Positions 2,391 to 60,799 of a stretch of 64,000 nt of DNA are shown here, in pieces. The translations under genes and the position numbers were made by a program. The notes beneath the pieces are model-generated. The model was given only the letters and a program-made list of their open reading frames with translations. It ran no database searches and was not told where the DNA came from. Source of the DNA: Eledone cirrhosa (Eukaryota); the NCBI GenBank assembly GCA_964016885.1, contig CAXHJY010001017.1, forward strand, positions 1 through 64,000, given 5' to 3'. Position 1 is the first letter of the stretch, and each line of letters begins with the position of its first letter.

Positions 2391-3160
2391 TGATGAAAGG
2401 CAAAGCTAACCTCGGCGGGATTTGAACTCAGACCGTAAAGGGCCGTAACTCTATGCCGCGAAGCAGGGTGTCCGACGCTCTACCGATACTGCCAATTTGC
2501 CTCGGGTGCCAGATTGACACTCAGCAGGATTTGGGAAAGAAGCAGAACTCAAAGGAAGTTTCAAATGATAATTGTTTCTACTTTTTGGCACAAGGCCATC
2601 AATTACCCCCAGTGTATTACTGGTACTTTATTTTATCGACCCCCGTAAGGATGAAAGGCAAAGTTAACCTCGGCGGGATTTGAACTCAGACCATGAAGGG
2701 CCGTAACTCTTTGCTGCAAAGCATGGCGTCCGACCCTCTACCGATACTGCCAATCCACCGCGTTTCAAATAATTGTTTCTACTTTAGGCACAAGGCCAGC
2801 AATTACCCAGTACATTACTGGTACTTTATTTTATAGACCCCGTAAGGATGAAGGGCAAAGTTAACTTCGGCGGGATTTGAACTCAGACCATGAAGGGCCG
2901 TAACTCTTTGCTGCAAAGCATGGCGTCCGACCCTCTACCGATACTGCCAATCCACCGCGTTTCAAATAATTGTTTCTACTTTAGGCACAAGGCCAGCAAT
3001 TACCCAGTACATTACTGGTACTTTATTTTATAGACCCCCGTAAGGATGAAAGGCAAAGTTAACTTCGGCGGGATTTGAACTCAGACCGTAAAGGGATGTA
3101 ACTATGCTAGAAAGCATTGCAATGATTTCATTTATTCGCCACAAGGGCCGACCCGCGTTT
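2391..3160 (-). mobile_element. Head-to-tail array of ~4 tRNA-derived SINEs (family S1)
   Basis: Minus strand reads GGATTGGCAGTATCGGTAGAG (A box) ... GAGTTCAAATCCC (B box) ... TTTGCCTTTCATCCTTACGGGGTCGATAAAATAAAGTACCAG ... GGCCTTGTGCCTAAAGTAGAAAC. The core resembles the Meta/MESC SINE domain as recalled, unverified. Confidence 0.85.
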
Positions 3161-3530
3161 CAAATAATAATAACAATAATACATTTGATATATTTTTAAT
3201 ACCTCTCAATTATCTCTTCTAATAGTCATCTATTCACCTATCTCTGCATGATTGATTTAAATTATCCATCCATCGAACTATTTATTCAACGAGAGAACGC
3301 CTGGACATACGACTTGCTAGAAATACTAAACACAGGTCCTCTATCACGCCCCTCGAATCACTCCACACCTTCTTCAAAAGGGAAAGTCATATTCTATAAT
3401 GGGGTTTGAAAAAGTAAAAAAAAATTATAATCTTGATGATCAGCTCAAGAGCTGCTTTGAACATACCTATTCATTTAGGACTGATTTGGTCCTAAAAAAC
3501 CTAGATCAAACATCTATTTGTACATCACCA

Positions 3531-29481: not shown

Positions 29482-33495
<4,014 letters not shown>

Positions 33496-33567
33496 CCGAA
33501 CTGAGGATCGCATAAGGTGAAACATTCGTTCTCAGATATGGTGAACTTACTGTTGTGGAACTACTTA

Positions 33568-33614
<47 letters not shown>

Positions 33615-33737
33615 TGGGGAAAATCGACTAACTTTTAAATTCCATCTGTGATAACATTTTACACGTTTTTATTGTATGTAAACTTCCCCCTTTGTATTTG
33701 TCCCCTTCTTTTGTGCCCCTGTGGCTAATAAAGAAAT
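33615..33737 (+). mobile_element. Short 3'-end fragment of a sister L1/Tx1 family in (TATC)n
   Basis: TATGTAAACTTCCCCCTTTGTATTTGTCCCC...AATAAAGAAAT resembles 39460-39521 and has TATC repeats on both sides. Confidence 0.8.
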
Positions 33738-33957
33738 ATATCTATCTATCTATTAATACACAAGATCTAGCTGTCGCTCTGTTTTGTTCAAATTTATTGA
33801 GGAAATTTTGTGAGTTCAAACTTAATTTTGATACAATTGTGTAGCTTGACCCTCCGTCTGAACTGTCAGGCGGTGGGTCAGCTCATCTTTACCCCTCCTA
33901 GAGGTGAAAAACCTGTTTTAAAAATTTTGTGTAAAAAATTTCAATCGTCTAACAGAA

Positions 33958-35834
33958 ATGTTAAACGCAGCGAACGAAAATAGTGGTGGGGGGACAGCGG
34001 TAAGAGTTGTAAGCTCGCACGCTTTAGTCCTCCCTTCCTTCCCAACTAACGTCATAGAGAAGGAAGGAAAAATGAAAATAAAAACGGACGAATCTGCGGA
34101 GAAAAAATTAAATGACGAAAACAACGAAAAAAAAAATTTGAAAAATTGCATGACAATACTAATAACACAAACAAAGACACAACAAACAAAAAATAACAGT
34201 TGAAAATAACATCATATCAGAAAACAAAGCAGACGACAAGATTTCTTTTGCACAGAAAACAAAGAAATCTTTGACTTATATAGCGGAAAACATTTCAGAT
34301 GTGGTACGAAGGATCACGGACGCAAAACAATACATAAGTGAAGGTGAGATGGGTATTTTATTGGTAAAAATGCCTCAAGAATTCACGAAAGACATTGAAA
34401 GCCGAACGGTCAAGTTTCGGACCATCAACAACAGTACAAAAAAACCTGAACAGCCTTCTCAAGCAGATATCAAAACAGTACTCGCAGAAGTACTGAATGA
34501 AACAACTTTCATAAGAAAAGACAGACTGTATGGAAGCCTAGCAATTATCATGAAGAACGAATCGGCGGCAAAAAAATGTGCTTTGTCACCGATTCGTTCG
34601 AAAAATTTCACCTTTTATCCATCTTATATGGGAAAAAAAACTCAACGCATATGGCTGGATGCAATGATGCCAGATGTGGACTACTGCTGGCTCATAGCTG
34701 GCTTCATCGATCCAGTGAATGACAACGTGATTTCCATTGGGAAAACCACAGGCAATGCGTTCAGTGGAACAGGTATAGAGCTGGTAGTACAAATGAAGCC
34801 TGAACGCATCGCCCAAATACCCGACAGAATCCTATTAGAGGACCACGGGTATATAAACATTAGCGTGGAGGGGAGAAGGCCGTCCTGCCATATCTGTGCA
34901 GGCAGAGGGCACCTGAAGGCCGCTTGTCCACAACTCAACAAAAAGAAAACTCTGCTACCAACACCAGCTCCACCACCACCACCACAACAGATAAACAAAC
35001 AACAAAACTCAGTCCCACCCAACCCGTCCCTCAGTAACACCACAACACCACCACAACACAAACAGTCACAACACATTACCCCAAAACAAAATACAGGCCC
35101 ACCCAACCTCTCACTCAATAAAACAACACAACCACCGCAGACACAACACACAACACAGTCTAACATAGTGACATCCCATCTCCCCCACAAAGAAAACCAA
35201 CACGGAAACATTACCAGCAAACATACCTCTTCCCTCCAACACTGAAGATAACCCAACGAATTCGGAGGAAGAAACGGAGTCCTTCAGACAGATTAAAAGG
35301 AAAAAAAGAAAACATGTGCAAAACACACAAGGACAAACAACCCCCACCCAAATCGCAACACAATCTAACAAAACAGAAAACACCCCTCCAGCAACAAACA
35401 AAACCAAACCTGCCCCTCCCCTCTTCGAAACACTCACACCATCGGAAAAAAAGACATTACACTATACTTACATCAACAGAAACAATAATAAATTAAATGA
35501 ACTCATATACAATAATCCTTCGGTACAAACCGAAGGTGTAAACTTTGTTTCATCAGAAAACCACCCACATTTAAAACTAATAAAAATCCCAATGAACCTC
35601 TACCAAAAACTAAAAAAGGATTTTAAGGAGGACGTAGGACCACCCTCTGTCAAACCCATAAACCGCGTCCTACTAAAAAGCTTTCCCCCTCCCCTTCCCC
35701 TCCCCAACACAACTCCAAACACCCCAACCCCACCACACACCGACGACCCCACACCACCACAAGACACCCCTTCACCCAACACCCCCGACCCCATGGAAGT
35801 CGTGCAACCCGAACCCCGGGAAGCGGAAAGGTAG
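33958..35834 (+). CDS. LINE ORF1 (gag-like, CCHC knuckle), split by frameshifts
   Basis: Track ORFs 33958-34203, 34271-35245 and 35316-35834 join by frame changes. CHICAGRGHLKAAC fits CX2CX4HX4C. Pro/Thr/Gln-rich C-terminus, stop 33 nt before the ORF2 ATG. Confidence 0.8.
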
Positions 35835-35867
35835 GTCTCTACACTCTCCTTTGGCTCTGCCGCCCAC

Positions 35868-38800
35868 ATGGATGTGTTAAGAGTAGGATGTTTGAATGCA
35901 CGTGGCCTGGGCTCAACTTGGAAGCAAGCAAAGCTTCTAAATGACCTCAGGTCATGTAGTATAAATGTAATGGTTATCTGTGAGACTCGAATCAGCGTCA
36001 TGCGGCAGCTGGCCCCCACCTTCGATGACTTTGAGGTGCATGCATCTCTCTGTCAACCTGGAGGTGGGGGTGGGGTTGTCGTGCTGCTGCAAAAACACCT
36101 GGGTCTTGCCGTACAGGTTGTGCACTCGGACCCGGAGGGTCGTTTGTTGGTGCTAGACGTTGGCAGTAGTGAAAGTGCGGCCTTGAGACTGGTCGCCGTC
36201 TACTCCCCTTTCGGAGCTGAACGGCCCGACTTCTTCCAGCGTTTGGAGACTTTTCTGGGAACGTCGCGTTCCCTGCTTCTAGCGGGGGATTGGAATGACA
36301 TCCTGGATGCACATTGGGACTATGCAGGAGCATGTCCTAATAGAGGGGGGTGTAACAGCCTCAAGGGGTTACTCGACCGTTTTAACTTGGTCGATAGATA
36401 TCGACTAGATTTTCCAACTGTGCCTACCTGGACTTGGAGAAACCACAGTGGTCAATCTAGATCGTACTTAGATAGATTCTTAGTTAGAAGTAAGGATAGG
36501 GACATATTAAGCTGTCCAGAAATGCGCACGGTTGGCTACACGGATCACAAATTAGTGACCTGCGTGGTCAATCTCGAGAAAACACATAGACAGGGTCCCG
36601 GTTACTGGAAACTTAATTTGTTTTTACCGGCAAAAGAGACTTACAGAAACCGGATTAGCAGATTAGTTAAGGAGAGGTTGACGGGTGCAATCGTCAACAA
36701 CCGATGGTGGGCATCTCTCAAAAGAGAGATTAGAACAGAATCAATAAGTTATAGCAAGATGTTAGCTGCCAATAGGAATAGAAACGAGAAAGAATTAACA
36801 GGTAAATTAGAAGAGGCAATCAAGAGCGAAGATGTGGCCAGAGTGCTGGCATCGAGGACGGCCTTGAACCAGTTTTTCGATGCAAAGCATGAAGGCTGCG
36901 TCATTCGAAGTAAAATACGTGCTCTAGGTAATGAGGGGGCCAAAGCCGTTGGATGGGCCCGCGTGACAGAAGCTAAAAGTGGAAATCGATCCACCATCCG
37001 GTCGTTGCAAGACGAAGATGGACGAGTGATCCGGGAGCCTAAGCAGATGTGCGAGGCCTTTCAAAAGCACTTTGCCCGATTGTTCGGGGGAGGCGAGGGT
37101 CCGGGCCGGGGCGTGGATTTCGGTCCATACCTCGACGGCCTGCCGCGTCTCTCGAACAAAGAGGCAGAGTCCTGCGAGGGACCAATCTCGGCTGATGAGA
37201 TCGGAGATGCGCTGAGCCAATGCAGCAGACGCAAATCTCCAGGTCTCGATGGTATACCTTACGAACTTTATTTAGCAATGCCGGTCTTCTTCTCCGAACT
37301 CCTCGAAGCGGTCTACTGCAATTGGCAGCAGAACGGGAGAATTCCTTGTTCTGTAGCCAAGGGCGTAGTCACGCTGGTGAGGAAGGACGAGAACAAGGGG
37401 GATAGTATAAATAATTTTCGGCCCATAACCCTGCTAAACACAGAGTTAAAGATTTTGGCCAAGGTGTTAGCAAAGAGGTTGGCGCTTGTCGTGGGTGGCC
37501 TGGTGGGAGATGCGCAGACATGTGCTATCCCATCCAGGTCCATTCACGATAACCTCCACCTCATGCGATACATCATAGAGAGGGTTGGCAACAAACCCGG
37601 CTTCGGTGGGGCCCTGATCAACTTGGATCAGTCTAAGGCCTTCGATAGGGTCGACCATGGTTACCTGGATGCGGTGCTAGCGGCGGCTGGGTTCGGTCCT
37701 GTTTTCAGAGGCTGGATCACTGCCCTACATAGCAACCACATCTGTTCTAGGATCAAGGTGAACGGCTACCTTTCGAAGCCGTTCGAAATCACACGATCCA
37801 TTCGACAGGGGTGCCCTCTCTCCTCCCTTCTGTACGTATTGACTCTCGAGCCTTTACTGAGGAAGTTGGAGTTGTTGCAGGGTATCCCCCTGGAACCAGG
37901 ATTGAGCAAAGCGGTGTCGGCCTACGCCGATGACGTAACAGTAATGGTATCAACCGACTCGGAGATCGAGGCGATCGGTACCTTACTGGAGGAGTACGAA
38001 AGGTTGTCAGGAGCGAAACTGAACCGGGAAAAATCCATCGGGCTGCAACTCGGAACGTGGAGAGGCAAACCGATGCCTCCTGACGGTGTCGTCGGACACT
38101 GGACGGAGGGCCCGGTAAAGTTGCTTGGGGTCTGGTTTGGACCGGACCTCCAGGTGGAAAAGAACTGGAACGAGGTTACGAACAAGGTGTTTGCACTAAC
38201 CCAGAAATGGGCCAAGTGTAAGCTGTCCCTAAAAGGCCGGGCGGAGGTGGCGAACATTTACATAGCGTCCGTCACTTACTACCGCCTGACTGTCGTGCCT
38301 TGCCCTAAGGAAACACTCACCACCATGGAACGCATGCTCTTCCAATTTCTTTGGAAGAAGCGTCCTCCTATGGTGAGAAGATCCATCTGCTGCCAACAAC
38401 CTTCGAAAGGAGGGCTGGGGATGCCGTGGTTGATGATGCGTAGGCACGCATTAAGGCTACGGCACCTACAGGTATTCCTCACTGGTCAACCGGTGTGGGC
38501 TCCGTTCGTGAAACGAGCCTTTCCGAGACTCATCTCACTCACCGAGCTACAGTCCTGGGTCAAGCAAAGATCCGGAAAACTGGGAGACTGGCACACTGAG
38601 TGTGCTCAGGCGCTCAGGGCTCTCTGGCAAGCGGGCCGGGCCATCGGTGGAGAATCCACCTCATCATTCTATAGAGGGCTGGTGGCTAGCAGGGGCGATG
38701 ACACCCTTGGAGAGTCGCTGGACATGGAGGAAGACGAACTGGCCAGCCTGTTCGGTAGGACTTTCGGCCCAGGACCAATGGACAACTTCCAGAAGTCACT

Positions 38801-39305
38801 GGCCTGGCAGTGCTACCGAGGGGCTCTACCCGTTCGAGAGAGGCTCTACAGACACGGGCGCCCGGGCAGGGATCCCTCAAAAAAGATTTGCCCTAGATGT
38901 GTGCGTCACGAAGAAACCGTGGCGCACGCATTGGTGCAATGTCCGGGCGTGGCTGATCTGTGGGGCTACGCCGAACAACTGCTGTCGCGGGTGGCGCCGA
39001 TTAAATTGACCGCCGAGTCCGTGATGACAATCAAACCGCCTCCCCTCTTCACAAAGGAAGCAAAGGCGGTTTTTCTGTGCGTAATAGCCATGTTGAAAGA
39101 GGTTGTTTGGTGGACACGATTGAAAGGTCTGAGGTCAGGCAACTTCCTCTCTGGCCATAGTCTGGTCTACTTCTTCCGATATCACTTCGGAAGAAGGATA
39201 AGAATGGAGAGAGAGGTGCTTGGCCACAGGCAGTTTTATGAAAGGTGGGTGATAGTGGCGAGAATGGCTCGTGTAAATGGGCCTTCTCTGTATACCATCC
39301 TGTAG
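35868..39305 (+). CDS. LINE ORF2: APE endonuclease, reverse transcriptase and C-terminal zinc finger (1145 aa)
   Basis: EN motifs LNARGL, ICETR, GDWN, YLDRF, TDH. RT motifs KSPGLDG, FRPITLLN, DQSKAFDRVDH, RQGCPLS, YADD. C-terminal CPRC..ETVAHALVQC. Confidence 0.97.
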   Translation: MDVLRVGCLNARGLGSTWKQAKLLNDLRSCSINVMVICETRISVMRQLAPTFDDFEVHASLCQPGGGGGVVVLLQKHLGLAVQVVHSDPEGRLLVLDVGSSESAALRLVAVYSPFGAERPDFFQRLETFLGTSRSLLLAGDWNDILDAHWDYAGACPNRGGCNSLKGLLDRFNLVDRYRLDFPTVPTWTWRNHSGQSRSYLDRFLVRSKDRDILSCPEMRTVGYTDHKLVTCVVNLEKTHRQGPGYWKLNLFLPAKETYRNRISRLVKERLTGAIVNNRWWASLKREIRTESISYSKMLAANRNRNEKELTGKLEEAIKSEDVARVLASRTALNQFFDAKHEGCVIRSKIRALGNEGAKAVGWARVTEAKSGNRSTIRSLQDEDGRVIREPKQMCEAFQKHFARLFGGGEGPGRGVDFGPYLDGLPRLSNKEAESCEGPISADEIGDALSQCSRRKSPGLDGIPYELYLAMPVFFSELLEAVYCNWQQNGRIPCSVAKGVVTLVRKDENKGDSINNFRPITLLNTELKILAKVLAKRLALVVGGLVGDAQTCAIPSRSIHDNLHLMRYIIERVGNKPGFGGALINLDQSKAFDRVDHGYLDAVLAAAGFGPVFRGWITALHSNHICSRIKVNGYLSKPFEITRSIRQGCPLSSLLYVLTLEPLLRKLELLQGIPLEPGLSKAVSAYADDVTVMVSTDSEIEAIGTLLEEYERLSGAKLNREKSIGLQLGTWRGKPMPPDGVVGHWTEGPVKLLGVWFGPDLQVEKNWNEVTNKVFALTQKWAKCKLSLKGRAEVANIYIASVTYYRLTVVPCPKETLTTMERMLFQFLWKKRPPMVRRSICCQQPSKGGLGMPWLMMRRHALRLRHLQVFLTGQPVWAPFVKRAFPRLISLTELQSWVKQRSGKLGDWHTECAQALRALWQAGRAIGGESTSSFYRGLVASRGDDTLGESLDMEEDELASLFGRTFGPGPMDNFQKSLAWQCYRGALPVRERLYRHGRPGRDPSKKICPRCVRHEETVAHALVQCPGVADLWGYAEQLLSRVAPIKLTAESVMTIKPPPLFTKEAKAVFLCVIAMLKEVVWWTRLKGLRSGNFLSGHSLVYFFRYHFGRRIRMEREVLGHRQFYERWVIVARMARVNGPSLYTIL

Positions 39306-39751
39306 GTAAAGAAGTAAAGGAGAGGGGAGCACCTTCTCCATGTGCTCCCCGGGCAAAGGATTGCACACTTTTTCGGGGGTGTGTGCAACCCCCATCACGT
39401 CCCCTCCCTTTTGAGGTTATTTTCGATTATTTTCATGTTACACCCTTTTTACTCGATTATATGTAAACTCCCCCTTTGTATTTGTCCCTTCTTTTTATGC
39501 CTTTATGGTAAATAAAGAAATCTATCTATCTATTAATACACACACATTTATATATGTATCTCTCTCCCTCTACACACACACTCACACATACACACAGTCA
39601 GCCACTCTTACCCACACCCTTGTGCTAAATTAGTTCAGATCAATCACAGTTCTAATTACAATCTCTTCTGATTAGTTGATGTGGTAACAAAATGAGGCGG
39701 CAGAGATAGGAGATTGTAAACACACCTTCTGTAGAATGATAATAATAGTAA

Positions 39752-58317: not shown

Positions 58318-58811
58318 TTGGTGTGTGTGTGTTGGTGTGTGTTGGTGTGTGTGTGTGTGTGTGTATTGGTGTGTGTGTGTGTGTGTATGTATTAAAATGT
58401 GTACATATATATAAATGTGTGTACATAAATCTGTGTATATATATATAGATATATATACATAATATATATATAATGTGTATATATATATATATATACATAT
58501 ACGAGACACTAAACATGTGTTGCTATTATAACTGGCAGCTAATTTAAAGACAACAACAACAACAACAATAACAATAATAATAATAATAATAATAATAACA
58601 ATGTGAAGTGAAACTATTGGTATTTCATATTAAAAAGTTCTGTGAAAGTGAAATGAATGGGGAATTATTCGAACACTCCTTGGTAATAGCAATAGCTACA
58701 TGATGATGATGATGGCGATGATGATGATGAAATATTATTTGAAGATGCGAAATCATGTAATAATAATGCTTTCTTTATTAACCACAAGGGTTGACACAAA
58801 GTATAACATTA

Positions 58812-60402
58812 AGGACAACACAGGACAATACAGGACAGCACAGAACAATACAGGACAATACAGGACAACACAGGACAGCACAGGACAATACAGGACAATA
58901 CAGGACAATACAGGACAATACAGGGCGGTACAGGACAATACAGGACAATACAGGACAACACAGGACGGTACAGGACAATACAGGACAATACAGGACAATA
59001 CAGGACAGCACAGGACAATACAGGACAGCACAGGACAATACAGGACAATACAGGACGGTACAGGACAATACAGGACAATACAGGACGGTACAGGACAATA
59101 CAGGACAATACAGGACAATACAGGACAATACAGGACGGTACAGGACAATACAGGACAACACAGGACGGTACAGGACAATACAGGACAATACAGGACAACA
59201 CAGGACAACACAGGACAATACAGGACGGTACAGGACAATACAGGACAATACAGGACAATACAGGACAATACAGGACGGTACAGGACAATACAGGACAACA
59301 CAGGACGGTACAGGACAATACAGGACAATACAGGACAACACAGGACAACACAGGACAATACAGGACGGTACAGGACAATACAGGACAATACAGGACAATA
59401 CAGGACAATACAGGACGGTACAGGACAATACAGGACAACACAGGACGGTACAGGACAATACAGGACGGTACAGGACAATACAGGACAGTACAGGACAACA
59501 CAGGACAGTACAGGACAACACAGGACAATACAGGACGGTACAGGACAATACAGGACGGTACAGGACAATACAGGACAGTACAGGACAATACAGGACAACA
59601 CAGGACGGTACAGGACAATACAGGACAATACAGGACAACACAGGACAACACAGGACAATACAGGACGGTACAGGACAATACAGGACAATACAGGACAATA
59701 CAGGACAATACAGGACGGTACAGGACAATACAGGACAATACAGGACGGTACAGGACAATACAGGACAATACAGGACAACACAGGACAACACAGGACAATA
59801 CAGGACAATACAGGACGGTACAGGACAATACAGGACAATACAGGACAGTACAGGACGGTACAGGACAATACAGGACAGTACAGGACAATACAGGACAACA
59901 CAGGACGGTACAGGACAATACAGGACAATACAGGACAACACAGGACAACACAGGACAATACAGGACGGTACAGGACAATACAGGACAACACAGGACAACA
60001 CAGGACAATACAGGACAATACAGGACAATACAGGACGGTACAGGACAATACAGGACAATACAGGACAATACAGGACGGTACAGGACAATACAGGACAATA
60101 CAGGACAACACAGGACAATACAGGACAATACAGGACGGTACAGGACAATACAGGACAATACAGGACAACACAGGACAACACAGGACAATACAGGACAATA
60201 CAGGACGGTACAGGACAATACAGGACAGTACAGGACAACACAGGACAGTACAGGACAATACAGGACAATACAGGACAATACAGGACAACACAGGACAATA
60301 CAGGACGGTACAGGACAACACAGGACAATACAGGACAATACAGGACAACACAGGACAATATAGGGCGGTACAGGACAATACAGGACAATAGAGGACAATA
60401 CA
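58812..60402. repeat. 10-bp satellite (CAGGACAATA)n, ~159 units
   Basis: Constant CAGGAC plus variable AATA/AACA/GGTA/AGTA/AGCA, with no indels. Confidence 0.98.
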
Positions 60403-60799
60403 GACTTCCGACGTACACTCGTGGAGAAAGCTCACAAAAAAAATTACGATTACCCTGACCACCTGGGTAATGCCCCTCCCAGTTTTCCACCTCCAATTTA
60501 CAGGCGTATACTCAGAGCAGGCCTATTCACTCGGGTCATGCTTGCCTCTTTCACCCATCTTTGAACAAATTACTGGGAAGAGAGCACTTACCTAATAGTA
60601 ATAAAAAAGAAATAGTATTTGAAGATACGCATCGTGTAAAAGAATCAGTACAATACATCGATTAGGCCAAAACTGGCCAACTTGACAATGTATTGAGTTA
60701 AAAGATTAGCAATGATGGTTTCAAATATGGCTGAAGGAGGCGAAGGAGGTGTTTTAGTTCTTTAGTTCTAGATTTTGGCAGAAAAATCAACAAGGGGAA

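What the first reader, a model, noticed from the sequence alone, without database searches (positions are those of the whole stretch)
33568..39542. L1/Tx1 LINE with intact ORF2 apparently targeted to (TATC)n and stacked behind a sister element
Seen: (TATC)n at 33568-33614, then a 120-bp 3' fragment of a related family ending AATAAAGAAAT+(ATCT), then the full element bounded by the 22-bp duplication TCTATCTATCTATTAATACACA. There is no poly(A) tail. Two insertions thus sit in the same short tetranucleotide repeat, in the same orientation, although (TA)n is far more abundant here. Known: Tx1-clade elements include sequence-specific families (Kibi (TC)n, Koshi (TTC)n, Keno U2, Mutsu 5S, Dewa tRNA arrays). 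Inference: a (TATC)n/GATA-repeat-specific family, or one that synthesises (TCTA)n tails and re-targets them.
Basis: partly seen in the sequence, partly recalled or inferred. Interest (0 to 1): 0.75.

Follow-up and report, generated by a model that had tools for sequence, protein, structure and literature searches.

The report
Octopod LINE targeting GATA repeats
A young jumping-gene family with over a thousand copies, in what is likely an octopus-type genome, lands at one fixed position of TATC/GATA repeats, has no poly(A) tail and piles up behind its relatives; repeat-seeking elements of this kind are known, but this repeat appears to be an unreported target, and close cousins in the same genome use other repeats.

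Summary
Confirmed. The window holds a full-length L1/Tx1-type LINE (intact 1145-aa ORF2; ORF1 frameshifted in this copy) inserted behind a 3' fragment of sister family B, in a (TATC)n tract.

The repeat is a target, not a tail:
- 352 of 375 heads counted on one strand have TATCTA within 36 nt upstream; background is 1.15%.
- In 28 informative pairs the duplication is 15-21 nt (median 19) and starts TAT(C/A)TAT right at the element end.
- 0 of 102 3' ends have poly(A).
- Upstream arrays are not shorter than downstream ones.

The strict duplication here is 20 nt; 22-23 includes microhomology. Stacking follows because each insertion duplicates a strand-specific target.

The family belongs to a radiation of about 48,000 3' ends sharing a terminal hairpin. 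It includes an (ATT)n-targeting lineage (66% ORF2 identity; 30 of 30 heads) and a 72-bp-repeat family (79%).

Whether the endonuclease or read-through RNA pairing sets specificity is untested. Tx1 membership could not be tested against named families. Microsatellite-targeting Tx1s are known; eight paper searches found no TATC target, and Repbase was unavailable. The scan noted this family before on other DNA.

The parts
33568..33615 (+). (TATC)11 TATT array; target tract, its right end doubling as the 5' copy of the first insertion's duplication
   Evidence: it follows the end of another repeat (177 matches) that is followed by (TA)-type runs in 12 of 15 loci seen, by (TATC)n in 2 and by neither in 1
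33612..33738 (+). 5'-truncated 3' end of sister family B, with 4-5 nt microhomology (CTATT) at its 5' junction; ends AATAAAGAAATA
   Evidence: 100% over 142 nt to full-length B copy L251; 5,786 exact B 3' ends
33739..33754 (+). 3' copy of family B's duplication (TATCTATCTATCTATT); the site later hit by the full element
   Evidence: sequence; order of events inferred from the nested duplications
33743..33762 (+). 5' copy of the full element's target-site duplication (20 nt strict; 23 nt with microhomology)
33765..33957 (+). head and 5' UTR of family A (starts ATCTAGCTG after 2 extra bases); lacks 36 nt present in other copies
33958..35834 (+). ORF1 (625-634 aa where open in other copies), broken by two frameshifts here; one CX2CX4HX4C knuckle at 34886-34927
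   Evidence: zf-CCHC only E=0.32 in an intact copy
35868..39305 (+). ORF2, 1145 aa, open: APE endonuclease, reverse transcriptase (YADD), C-terminal zinc-binding region
39489..39519 (+). predicted 3' terminal hairpin (inner 4-bp stem, 5-nt loop, outer helix) overlapping AATAAA at 39511-39516
   Evidence: z=-4.1; compensatory changes across families
39306..39522 (+). 3' UTR ending AATAAAGAAATC, no poly(A)
39523..39542 (+). 3' copy of the target-site duplication TATCTATCTATTAATACACA

Best explanation
This is a young, high-copy L1/Tx1-type LINE family whose copies sit at one register of TATC/GATA repeats (C|TATCTAT) with 15-21-nt duplications and no poly(A), likely because its endonuclease nicks the GATA strand there and reverse transcription likely starts at a fixed point just behind a predicted 3' RNA hairpin. 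Shown: the target motif, register, orientation, duplication length, absence of tails, copy numbers and stacking. Inferred: (1) ORF2 nicks the GATA strand within the first three bases of TATCTAT. (2) AAUAAA lies only 6 nt before the element end, so the transcript would run on into the donor's own (UAUC)n flank; reverse transcription would then begin internally, positioned by the hairpin and probably helped by pairing of the read-through UAUC with the nicked strand, which leaves poly(A) uncopied. (3) The second nick falls about 19 nt downstream. Each insertion duplicates an asymmetric target, so later copies of any TATC family can land in the tail-side copy in the same orientation. This explains the window: first a truncated B copy, then the full A copy.
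For: 352 of 375 heads on one strand have TATCTA within 36 nt upstream against 1.15% of random positions. 75 of 80 fetched heads have it, 45 of those with no relative's tail upstream. In 28 informative pairs of 73, duplications are 15-21 nt; positions +1 to +7 read T28 A28 T27 C24 T28 A27 T28 and -1 is C in 24. Copies ending ...GAAATA show that the boundary lies at +1 or later. A copy in a 34-bp minisatellite has unoccupied neighbour units carrying a single TATCTAT and the same 20 nt. 0 of 102 distinct 3' ends have A8. (TA)n covers 68 times more random sequence than (TATC)n (8,730 vs 128 bp in 200 kb), yet only 4 of 80 heads lie in TA-type sites. Family B: 30 of 30 heads behind TATCTA. One contig from a second coded organism shows a TATC-type flank.
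Against: No cleavage or retrotransposition assay, and no RNA data. 10 of 73 pairs give no anchored duplication of 10 nt or more, and 35 more lie in pure repeat where the length cannot be read. Several 5'-truncated copies show no clear duplication. 5 of 80 heads lack TATCTA upstream, so specificity is strong but not strict. About 3 of 73 pairs have extra repeat units at the 3' junction (L094, L098, L063). The motif table is conditional on anchoring at the element end. The hairpin's two inner pairs were fixed by my search pattern in 12 of the 16 aligned rows.
Confidence: 0.82

Rival explanations
1. Specificity comes mainly from RNA: a loosely specific endonuclease nicks AT-rich repeats and only sites that pair with read-through (UAUC)n prime reverse transcription, so the family remembers its target through its own flank.
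For: AAUAAA is only 6 nt from the end and no poly(A) is copied, which implies a read-through RNA. Motif conservation is strongest on the primer side (+1 to +7) and weaker upstream; 10 of 28 sites have no perfect TATC unit upstream. A family 79% identical in ORF2 uses a different, 72-bp target. Pairing aids priming in I factor, R1Bm and R2Ol (PMC6007223, passages).
Against: Degenerate sites keep the target base at the 3' junction (TATATAT in 4 of 28, TACCTAT in 1, TATCTCT in 1), so perfect pairing is not needed. The ATT lineage differs from TATC families at 38 fixed endonuclease positions. Endonuclease is held to be the main determinant in Tx1 (PMC4494074, passages).
Confidence: 0.3
2. The element synthesises (TCTA)n tails by reverse-transcriptase slippage, and the arrays are its products, re-used by later copies.
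For: About 3 of 73 pairs have extra units at the 3' junction. 30 of 80 heads lie behind a relative's 3' end. The repeat upstream of the window's array is followed by (TATC)n in 2 of 15 loci, and both of these carry an insertion.
Against: No added units in the 28 informative pairs. Upstream arrays are longer than downstream in 24 and shorter in 6 of 35 position-ordered copies (p=0.001; best-hit set 19 vs 11 of 38, p=0.13; the duplication itself favours the upstream side). 45 of 80 heads sit in TATC with no relative upstream. 0 of 5 arrays in 200 kb of random sequence adjoin an element.
Confidence: 0.07
3. Insertions are random and merely survive, or are amplified by duplication, in microsatellite-rich DNA.
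For: Some loci are duplicates of one event (L069/L097, L005/L006, L010/L011), and tandem arrays could grow by unequal crossing over.
Against: Fixed register and orientation, about 80-fold enrichment, avoidance of the far commoner (TA)n, different families interleaved each with its own duplication, and 0 of 80 family A heads behind ATT motifs while 30 of 30 ATT-lineage heads are.
Confidence: 0.02

Closest known systems
Kibi (TC)n and Koshi (TTC)n of teleosts; crocodilian Tx1 families on (TTCC)n/(TTTC)n (PMC4494074, PMC3812793; passages seen)
   Same: APE-type non-LTR elements of the L1/Tx1 group that insert in a pyrimidine-rich microsatellite strand; this family far exceeds the 20%-of-flanks criterion used in PMC4494074.
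   Different: Target unit is TATC, with an ATT sister lineage; host is likely an octopod. Relatedness to Kibi/Koshi was not tested because no named sequence was available.
MutsuDr (5S rRNA genes; PMC5340908, passages), Keno (U2), Tx1L (in Tx1D) (PMC4494074, passages)
   Same: Two-ORF, sequence-specific elements; tandem insertions sandwiching a duplication are described for the Tx1-mobilised SINEU-3.
   Different: MutsuDr carries a 3' poly(A) stretch; here 0 of 102 ends do. Target is a simple repeat, not an RNA gene.
RTE/CR1/L2 elements with microsatellite 3' tails (PMC6007223, passages)
   Same: No poly(A); 3' end meets a matching short repeat; RNA-target pairing may help priming.
   Different: There the repeat is part of the element and sites are dispersed; here the repeat is on both sides and belongs to the duplication.
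Waldo (ACAY), Mino (AC), Dong (TAA) (PMC3812793, passages)
   Same: Microsatellite-targeting non-LTR elements; Dong shares the TAA/ATT repeat with the sister lineage found here.
   Different: Other clades (R1 and R4; clade labels recalled), other repeats than TATC.
Human LINE-1 ORF2p (PDB 8SXT and others)
   Same: Same EN-RT layout and catalytic motifs; best solved-structure match, E=9e-51.
   Different: Distant in sequence; L1 uses a poly(A) tail and TT|AAAA sites (PMC6007223, passage).

Membership tests
L1 group non-LTR retrotransposon | ORF2 with APE endonuclease, RT and C-terminal zinc-binding region | tested here: met
   L1 ORF2p E=9e-51 against R2 E=2e-20
L1 group non-LTR retrotransposon | Separate ORF1, target-site duplications, 5'-truncated copies | tested here: met
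Tx1 clade | RT groups with named Tx1 families rather than L1 | tested here: inconclusive
   strong octopod clade and unnamed sister group; fish and turtle proteins at 36-41% RT identity, but no named Tx1 or L1 reference in the tree except one distant fungal protein labelled TX1
Tx1 clade | ORF1 with zinc knuckle (feature recalled) | tested here: inconclusive
   one CX2CX4HX4C motif visible; Pfam zf-CCHC E=0.32, below cut-off
Microsatellite-targeting Tx1 (Kibi/Koshi type) | More than 20% of flanks are one microsatellite (criterion in PMC4494074) | tested here: met
   352 of 375; 75 of 80
Kibi / Koshi proper | Target (TC)n or (TTC)n | tested here: not met
   target is TAT(C/A)TAT; 1 of 30 position-ordered A ends is followed by (TC)n
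Microsatellite-targeting Tx1 (Kibi/Koshi type) | Endonuclease cleaves the target specifically | not testable with these tools
   needs an in vitro assay
Tail-bearing LINEs (RTE/CR1/L2 type) | Repeat tail belongs to the element and is absent from 5' flanks | tested here: not met
Catalogued Repbase/Dfam family | Identity to a deposited consensus with a recorded target | not testable with these tools

The most novel reading that the evidence does not exclude
One octopod Tx1 radiation keeps its 3' hairpin and poly(A)-free priming but has switched targets at least twice (TATC, ATT, a 72-bp repeat) among still-intact families 66-83% identical in ORF2, and the switch is set largely by the read-through flank on the RNA, so that each element inherits its target from where its parent sat and could be re-aimed by changing a few RNA bases.
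Probability: 0.2. Interest if true: 0.72.

Novelty: new member of a known kind. Interest (0 to 1): 0.42.

Why it matters
It adds TATC/GATA, and ATT in a sister lineage, to the repeats targeted by APE-type LINEs. It also supplies close, intact relatives with different targets in one genome. How microsatellite targeting by these elements works is described as not well understood (PMC3812793), and endonuclease and RNA-tail swaps between these families would test it directly. With about 48,000 3' ends, the radiation also shapes the microsatellite landscape of this genome and would confound GATA or ATT microsatellite markers.

Tried and rejected
Empty allele: none among the joints shown when three contig sets and one RAD-seq run were laid on the locus (repeats at both junctions were skipped and 13 joints were not shown). 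The only other exact match to the left flank is a different copy of a repeat, not an allele; the region fetched around it served only as extra background.

Expression: no RNA holder listed. The Hi-C run of another organism laid 0 reads, so it was no test.

A DNA search with the sister fragment found nothing; a pattern search worked.

A metagenome scan gave only distant relatives (25-42% identity in the best segment) with no consistent flanking repeat. Cluster look-up gave no names. The Atlas returned only generic RT/endonuclease clusters.

The careful tree did not finish; the quick tree is used. Searches missed loci L061-L099 through a window-offset error; counts come. The ATT head count failed for the same kind of reason and was redone.

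Kojima and Fujiwara 2004 and Fujiwara 2015 were not held. The supplement and Figure 3 of PMC4494074, which list target units per family, could not be seen and may bear on novelty.
Full report
Observation. (TATC)n spans 33568-33614. The 22-mer occurs only at 33741 and 39521. ORF2 (35868-39305, 1145 aa) is open and carries APE endonuclease, RT and zf-RVT matches; human L1 ORF2p is the best solved relative. ORF1 is broken by two frameshifts in this copy and the 5' UTR lacks 36 nt; otherwise the copy differs from intact copy L164 by 16 substitutions and short indels. In the window (TA)n covers 11,192 bp and (TATC)n 264 bp. The nearest named protein is from Argonauta hians (67% in RT), so the host is likely an octopod (inference).

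Family size and age. Exact patterns give 1,438 3' ends and 754 heads for this family (A), an unusually high share of full-length copies. 36 full-length copies have a median pairwise identity of 97.3%, and the window copy is 99.6% identical to its nearest. Both ORFs are open in 3 of 35 position-ordered copies and 13 of 38 best-hit copies. The sister fragment belongs to family B: 5,786 exact 3' ends, ORF2 79% identical to A.

Target or tail. On the strand where each head counts once, 352 of 375 heads have TATCTA within 36 nt upstream. In 20 random 10-kb stretches 1.15% of positions do, and (TA)n covers 8,730 bp against 128 bp for (TATC)n. I examined 80 heads: 39 best hits, 40 taken in contig order (the first 44 listed, less three already held and one skipped) and the window. 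75 have the motif; 30 lie directly behind a relative's 3' end (15 of the 40 ordered ones) and 45 do not. Seven were dropped before pairing (three without a matching 3' end, three of deviant length, one duplicate), leaving 73 pairs. 63 have a duplication of at least 10 nt starting right at the element end ...AATAAAGAAAT(C/A). In the 28 whose duplication is not pure repeat, it is 15-21 nt long (median 19) and begins TAT(C/A)TAT, with C before it in 24. Ten of these have no perfect TATC unit further upstream, so a proto-repeat of about 7 nt suffices. One copy sits in a 34-bp minisatellite whose neighbour units are empty sites. None of 102 distinct 3' ends has A8. Upstream arrays are longer than downstream in 24 and shorter in 6 of 35 ordered copies (p=0.001), but only 19 against 11 of 38 best hits (p=0.13); the duplication itself favours the upstream side, so this only shows that tails are not the longer part. 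Against a clean picture: 10 pairs lack an anchored duplication, about 3 show extra units at the 3' junction, and several truncated copies show none.

The window's history (inferred). A (TATC)n TATT tract took a truncated B copy with a 15-16-nt duplication and a short microhomology at its 5' junction. The tail-side copy of that duplication then took the full A copy with a 20-nt duplication reaching into unique flank. The same orientation follows from the asymmetry of the target. Reads from another sample also join B tails to truncated A bodies. A rough count (6 arrays per 200 kb, about 90,000 in the genome, against some tens of thousands of related 3' ends) suggests stacking needs no extra preference; this rests on few arrays, and 0 of 5 merged random arrays adjoined an element.

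A wider radiation. A degenerate 3'-end pattern matches 48,413 times against 243 for the control. Family B heads follow TATCTA in 30 of 30. A second lineage (7,761 3' ends, 2,403 heads; ORF2 66% identical) has ATT arrays before 30 of 30 heads and TATCTA before none, 16 of them with no relative upstream, against 1.2% background. A third family (79%) inserts in a 72-bp tandem repeat in the five regions where I located its head. In a quick RT tree of 52 rows, the TATC families with the 72-bp family form one group (support 100) and the ATT lineage another (98), inside an octopod clade (100). A 3' hairpin overlapping AAUAAA is predicted in most of them: z=-4.1 for A, covariation score reached by 2 of 500 shuffles in 16 ends, with the caveat that my pattern fixed its two inner pairs. 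One contig from another coded organism continues the 3' end into CATATCTATCTCTCT.

Mechanism. Shown: motif, register, orientation, duplication length, no tail. Inferred: target-primed reverse transcription from a nick on the GATA strand. Copies ending GAAATA place the nick at or after +1, and retained target variants at +3 and +4 place it before those bases. Because cleavage normally falls 10-30 nt past AAUAAA (general knowledge) and the element ends 6 nt past it, the RNA would extend into the donor's UAUC flank, and precise ends then need internal initiation, set by the hairpin, by pairing, or both. I favour the endonuclease as main selector with pairing as helper (0.82 for the overall model); RNA-led selection remains open (0.3, partly overlapping). 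Fixed endonuclease differences between the TATC and ATT lineages are listed.

Known systems. Tx1-clade targeting of (TC)n, (TTC)n, (TTCC)n and (TTTC)n is published (PMC4494074, passages), as are ACAY, AC and TAA targets (PMC3812793, passages) and (TG)n (PMC4640811, passages). MutsuDr has a poly(A) stretch (PMC5340908, passages). L1-Tx1 is reported as expanded in coleoids, without targets in the passages seen (PMC8967140). RNA-target pairing in I factor, R1Bm and R2Ol is summarised in PMC6007223 (passages). PMC3747384 (passages) gave clade background only. Eight searches listed no paper with a TATC/GATA-targeting LINE; Repbase, two key papers and the figure and supplement of PMC4494074 were not visible. 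The element works like Kibi/Koshi, fails their target definition, and its Tx1 placement is likely but untested against named families.

Earlier notes of this scan, read after my analysis, describe the same GATA-targeting family, the ATT cousins and the 72-bp family on other DNA; they are not independent support.

Verdict. Real, well supported, a new member of a known kind with an apparently unreported target; interest 0.42.

Noticed in passing
window 58780-60600 (minus strand): 3' end of an ATT-lineage relative followed by ATTATTATTA; the 1.6-kb 10-bp satellite at 58812-60403 lies inside its 3' UTR and looks like an expansion of a short unit of that UTR.
   Followed up: partly
window about 3130-3190 (minus strand): Very short ATT-type 3' end (hairpin plus AATAAATGAAATC) between ATT-like sequence and another repeat.
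   Followed up: no
L422:3416-6607 and L424, L426-L428: A different RT-encoding LINE (about 25% to ORF2, no APE match) lies tail to tail with ATT-lineage copies at the same (ATT/AAT)n tract; 9 of 30 ATT 3' ends are followed by it. Possibly Dong/R4-like (label recalled, not tested).
   Followed up: partly
L430-L435 (G000:C1 about 4.22-4.27 Mb, 0.56 Mb, 1.57 Mb): Family 79% identical in ORF2 inserts at one position of a 72-bp tandem repeat and forms arrays with a period of about 5.9 kb.
   Followed up: partly
L012, L090, L104, L120, L138/L165: A dispersed host repeat with an internal (TATC)n followed by TTGATAGAGTAAGA is hit independently by families A and B.
   Followed up: no
L220-L249: Family B heads carry a recurring target-like leader (TC)nTATCA before GTCGTG, which may aid 5' joining by microhomology or act as an initiator.
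   Followed up: no
window about 33492-33567: End of another repeat (177 matches with one mismatch) that is usually followed by (TA)n; both loci where it is followed by (TATC)n carry a Tx1-type insertion.
   Followed up: partly
L467:7500-9800: Cluster of five TATC arrays each flanked by truncated members of families B, C and D.
   Followed up: no
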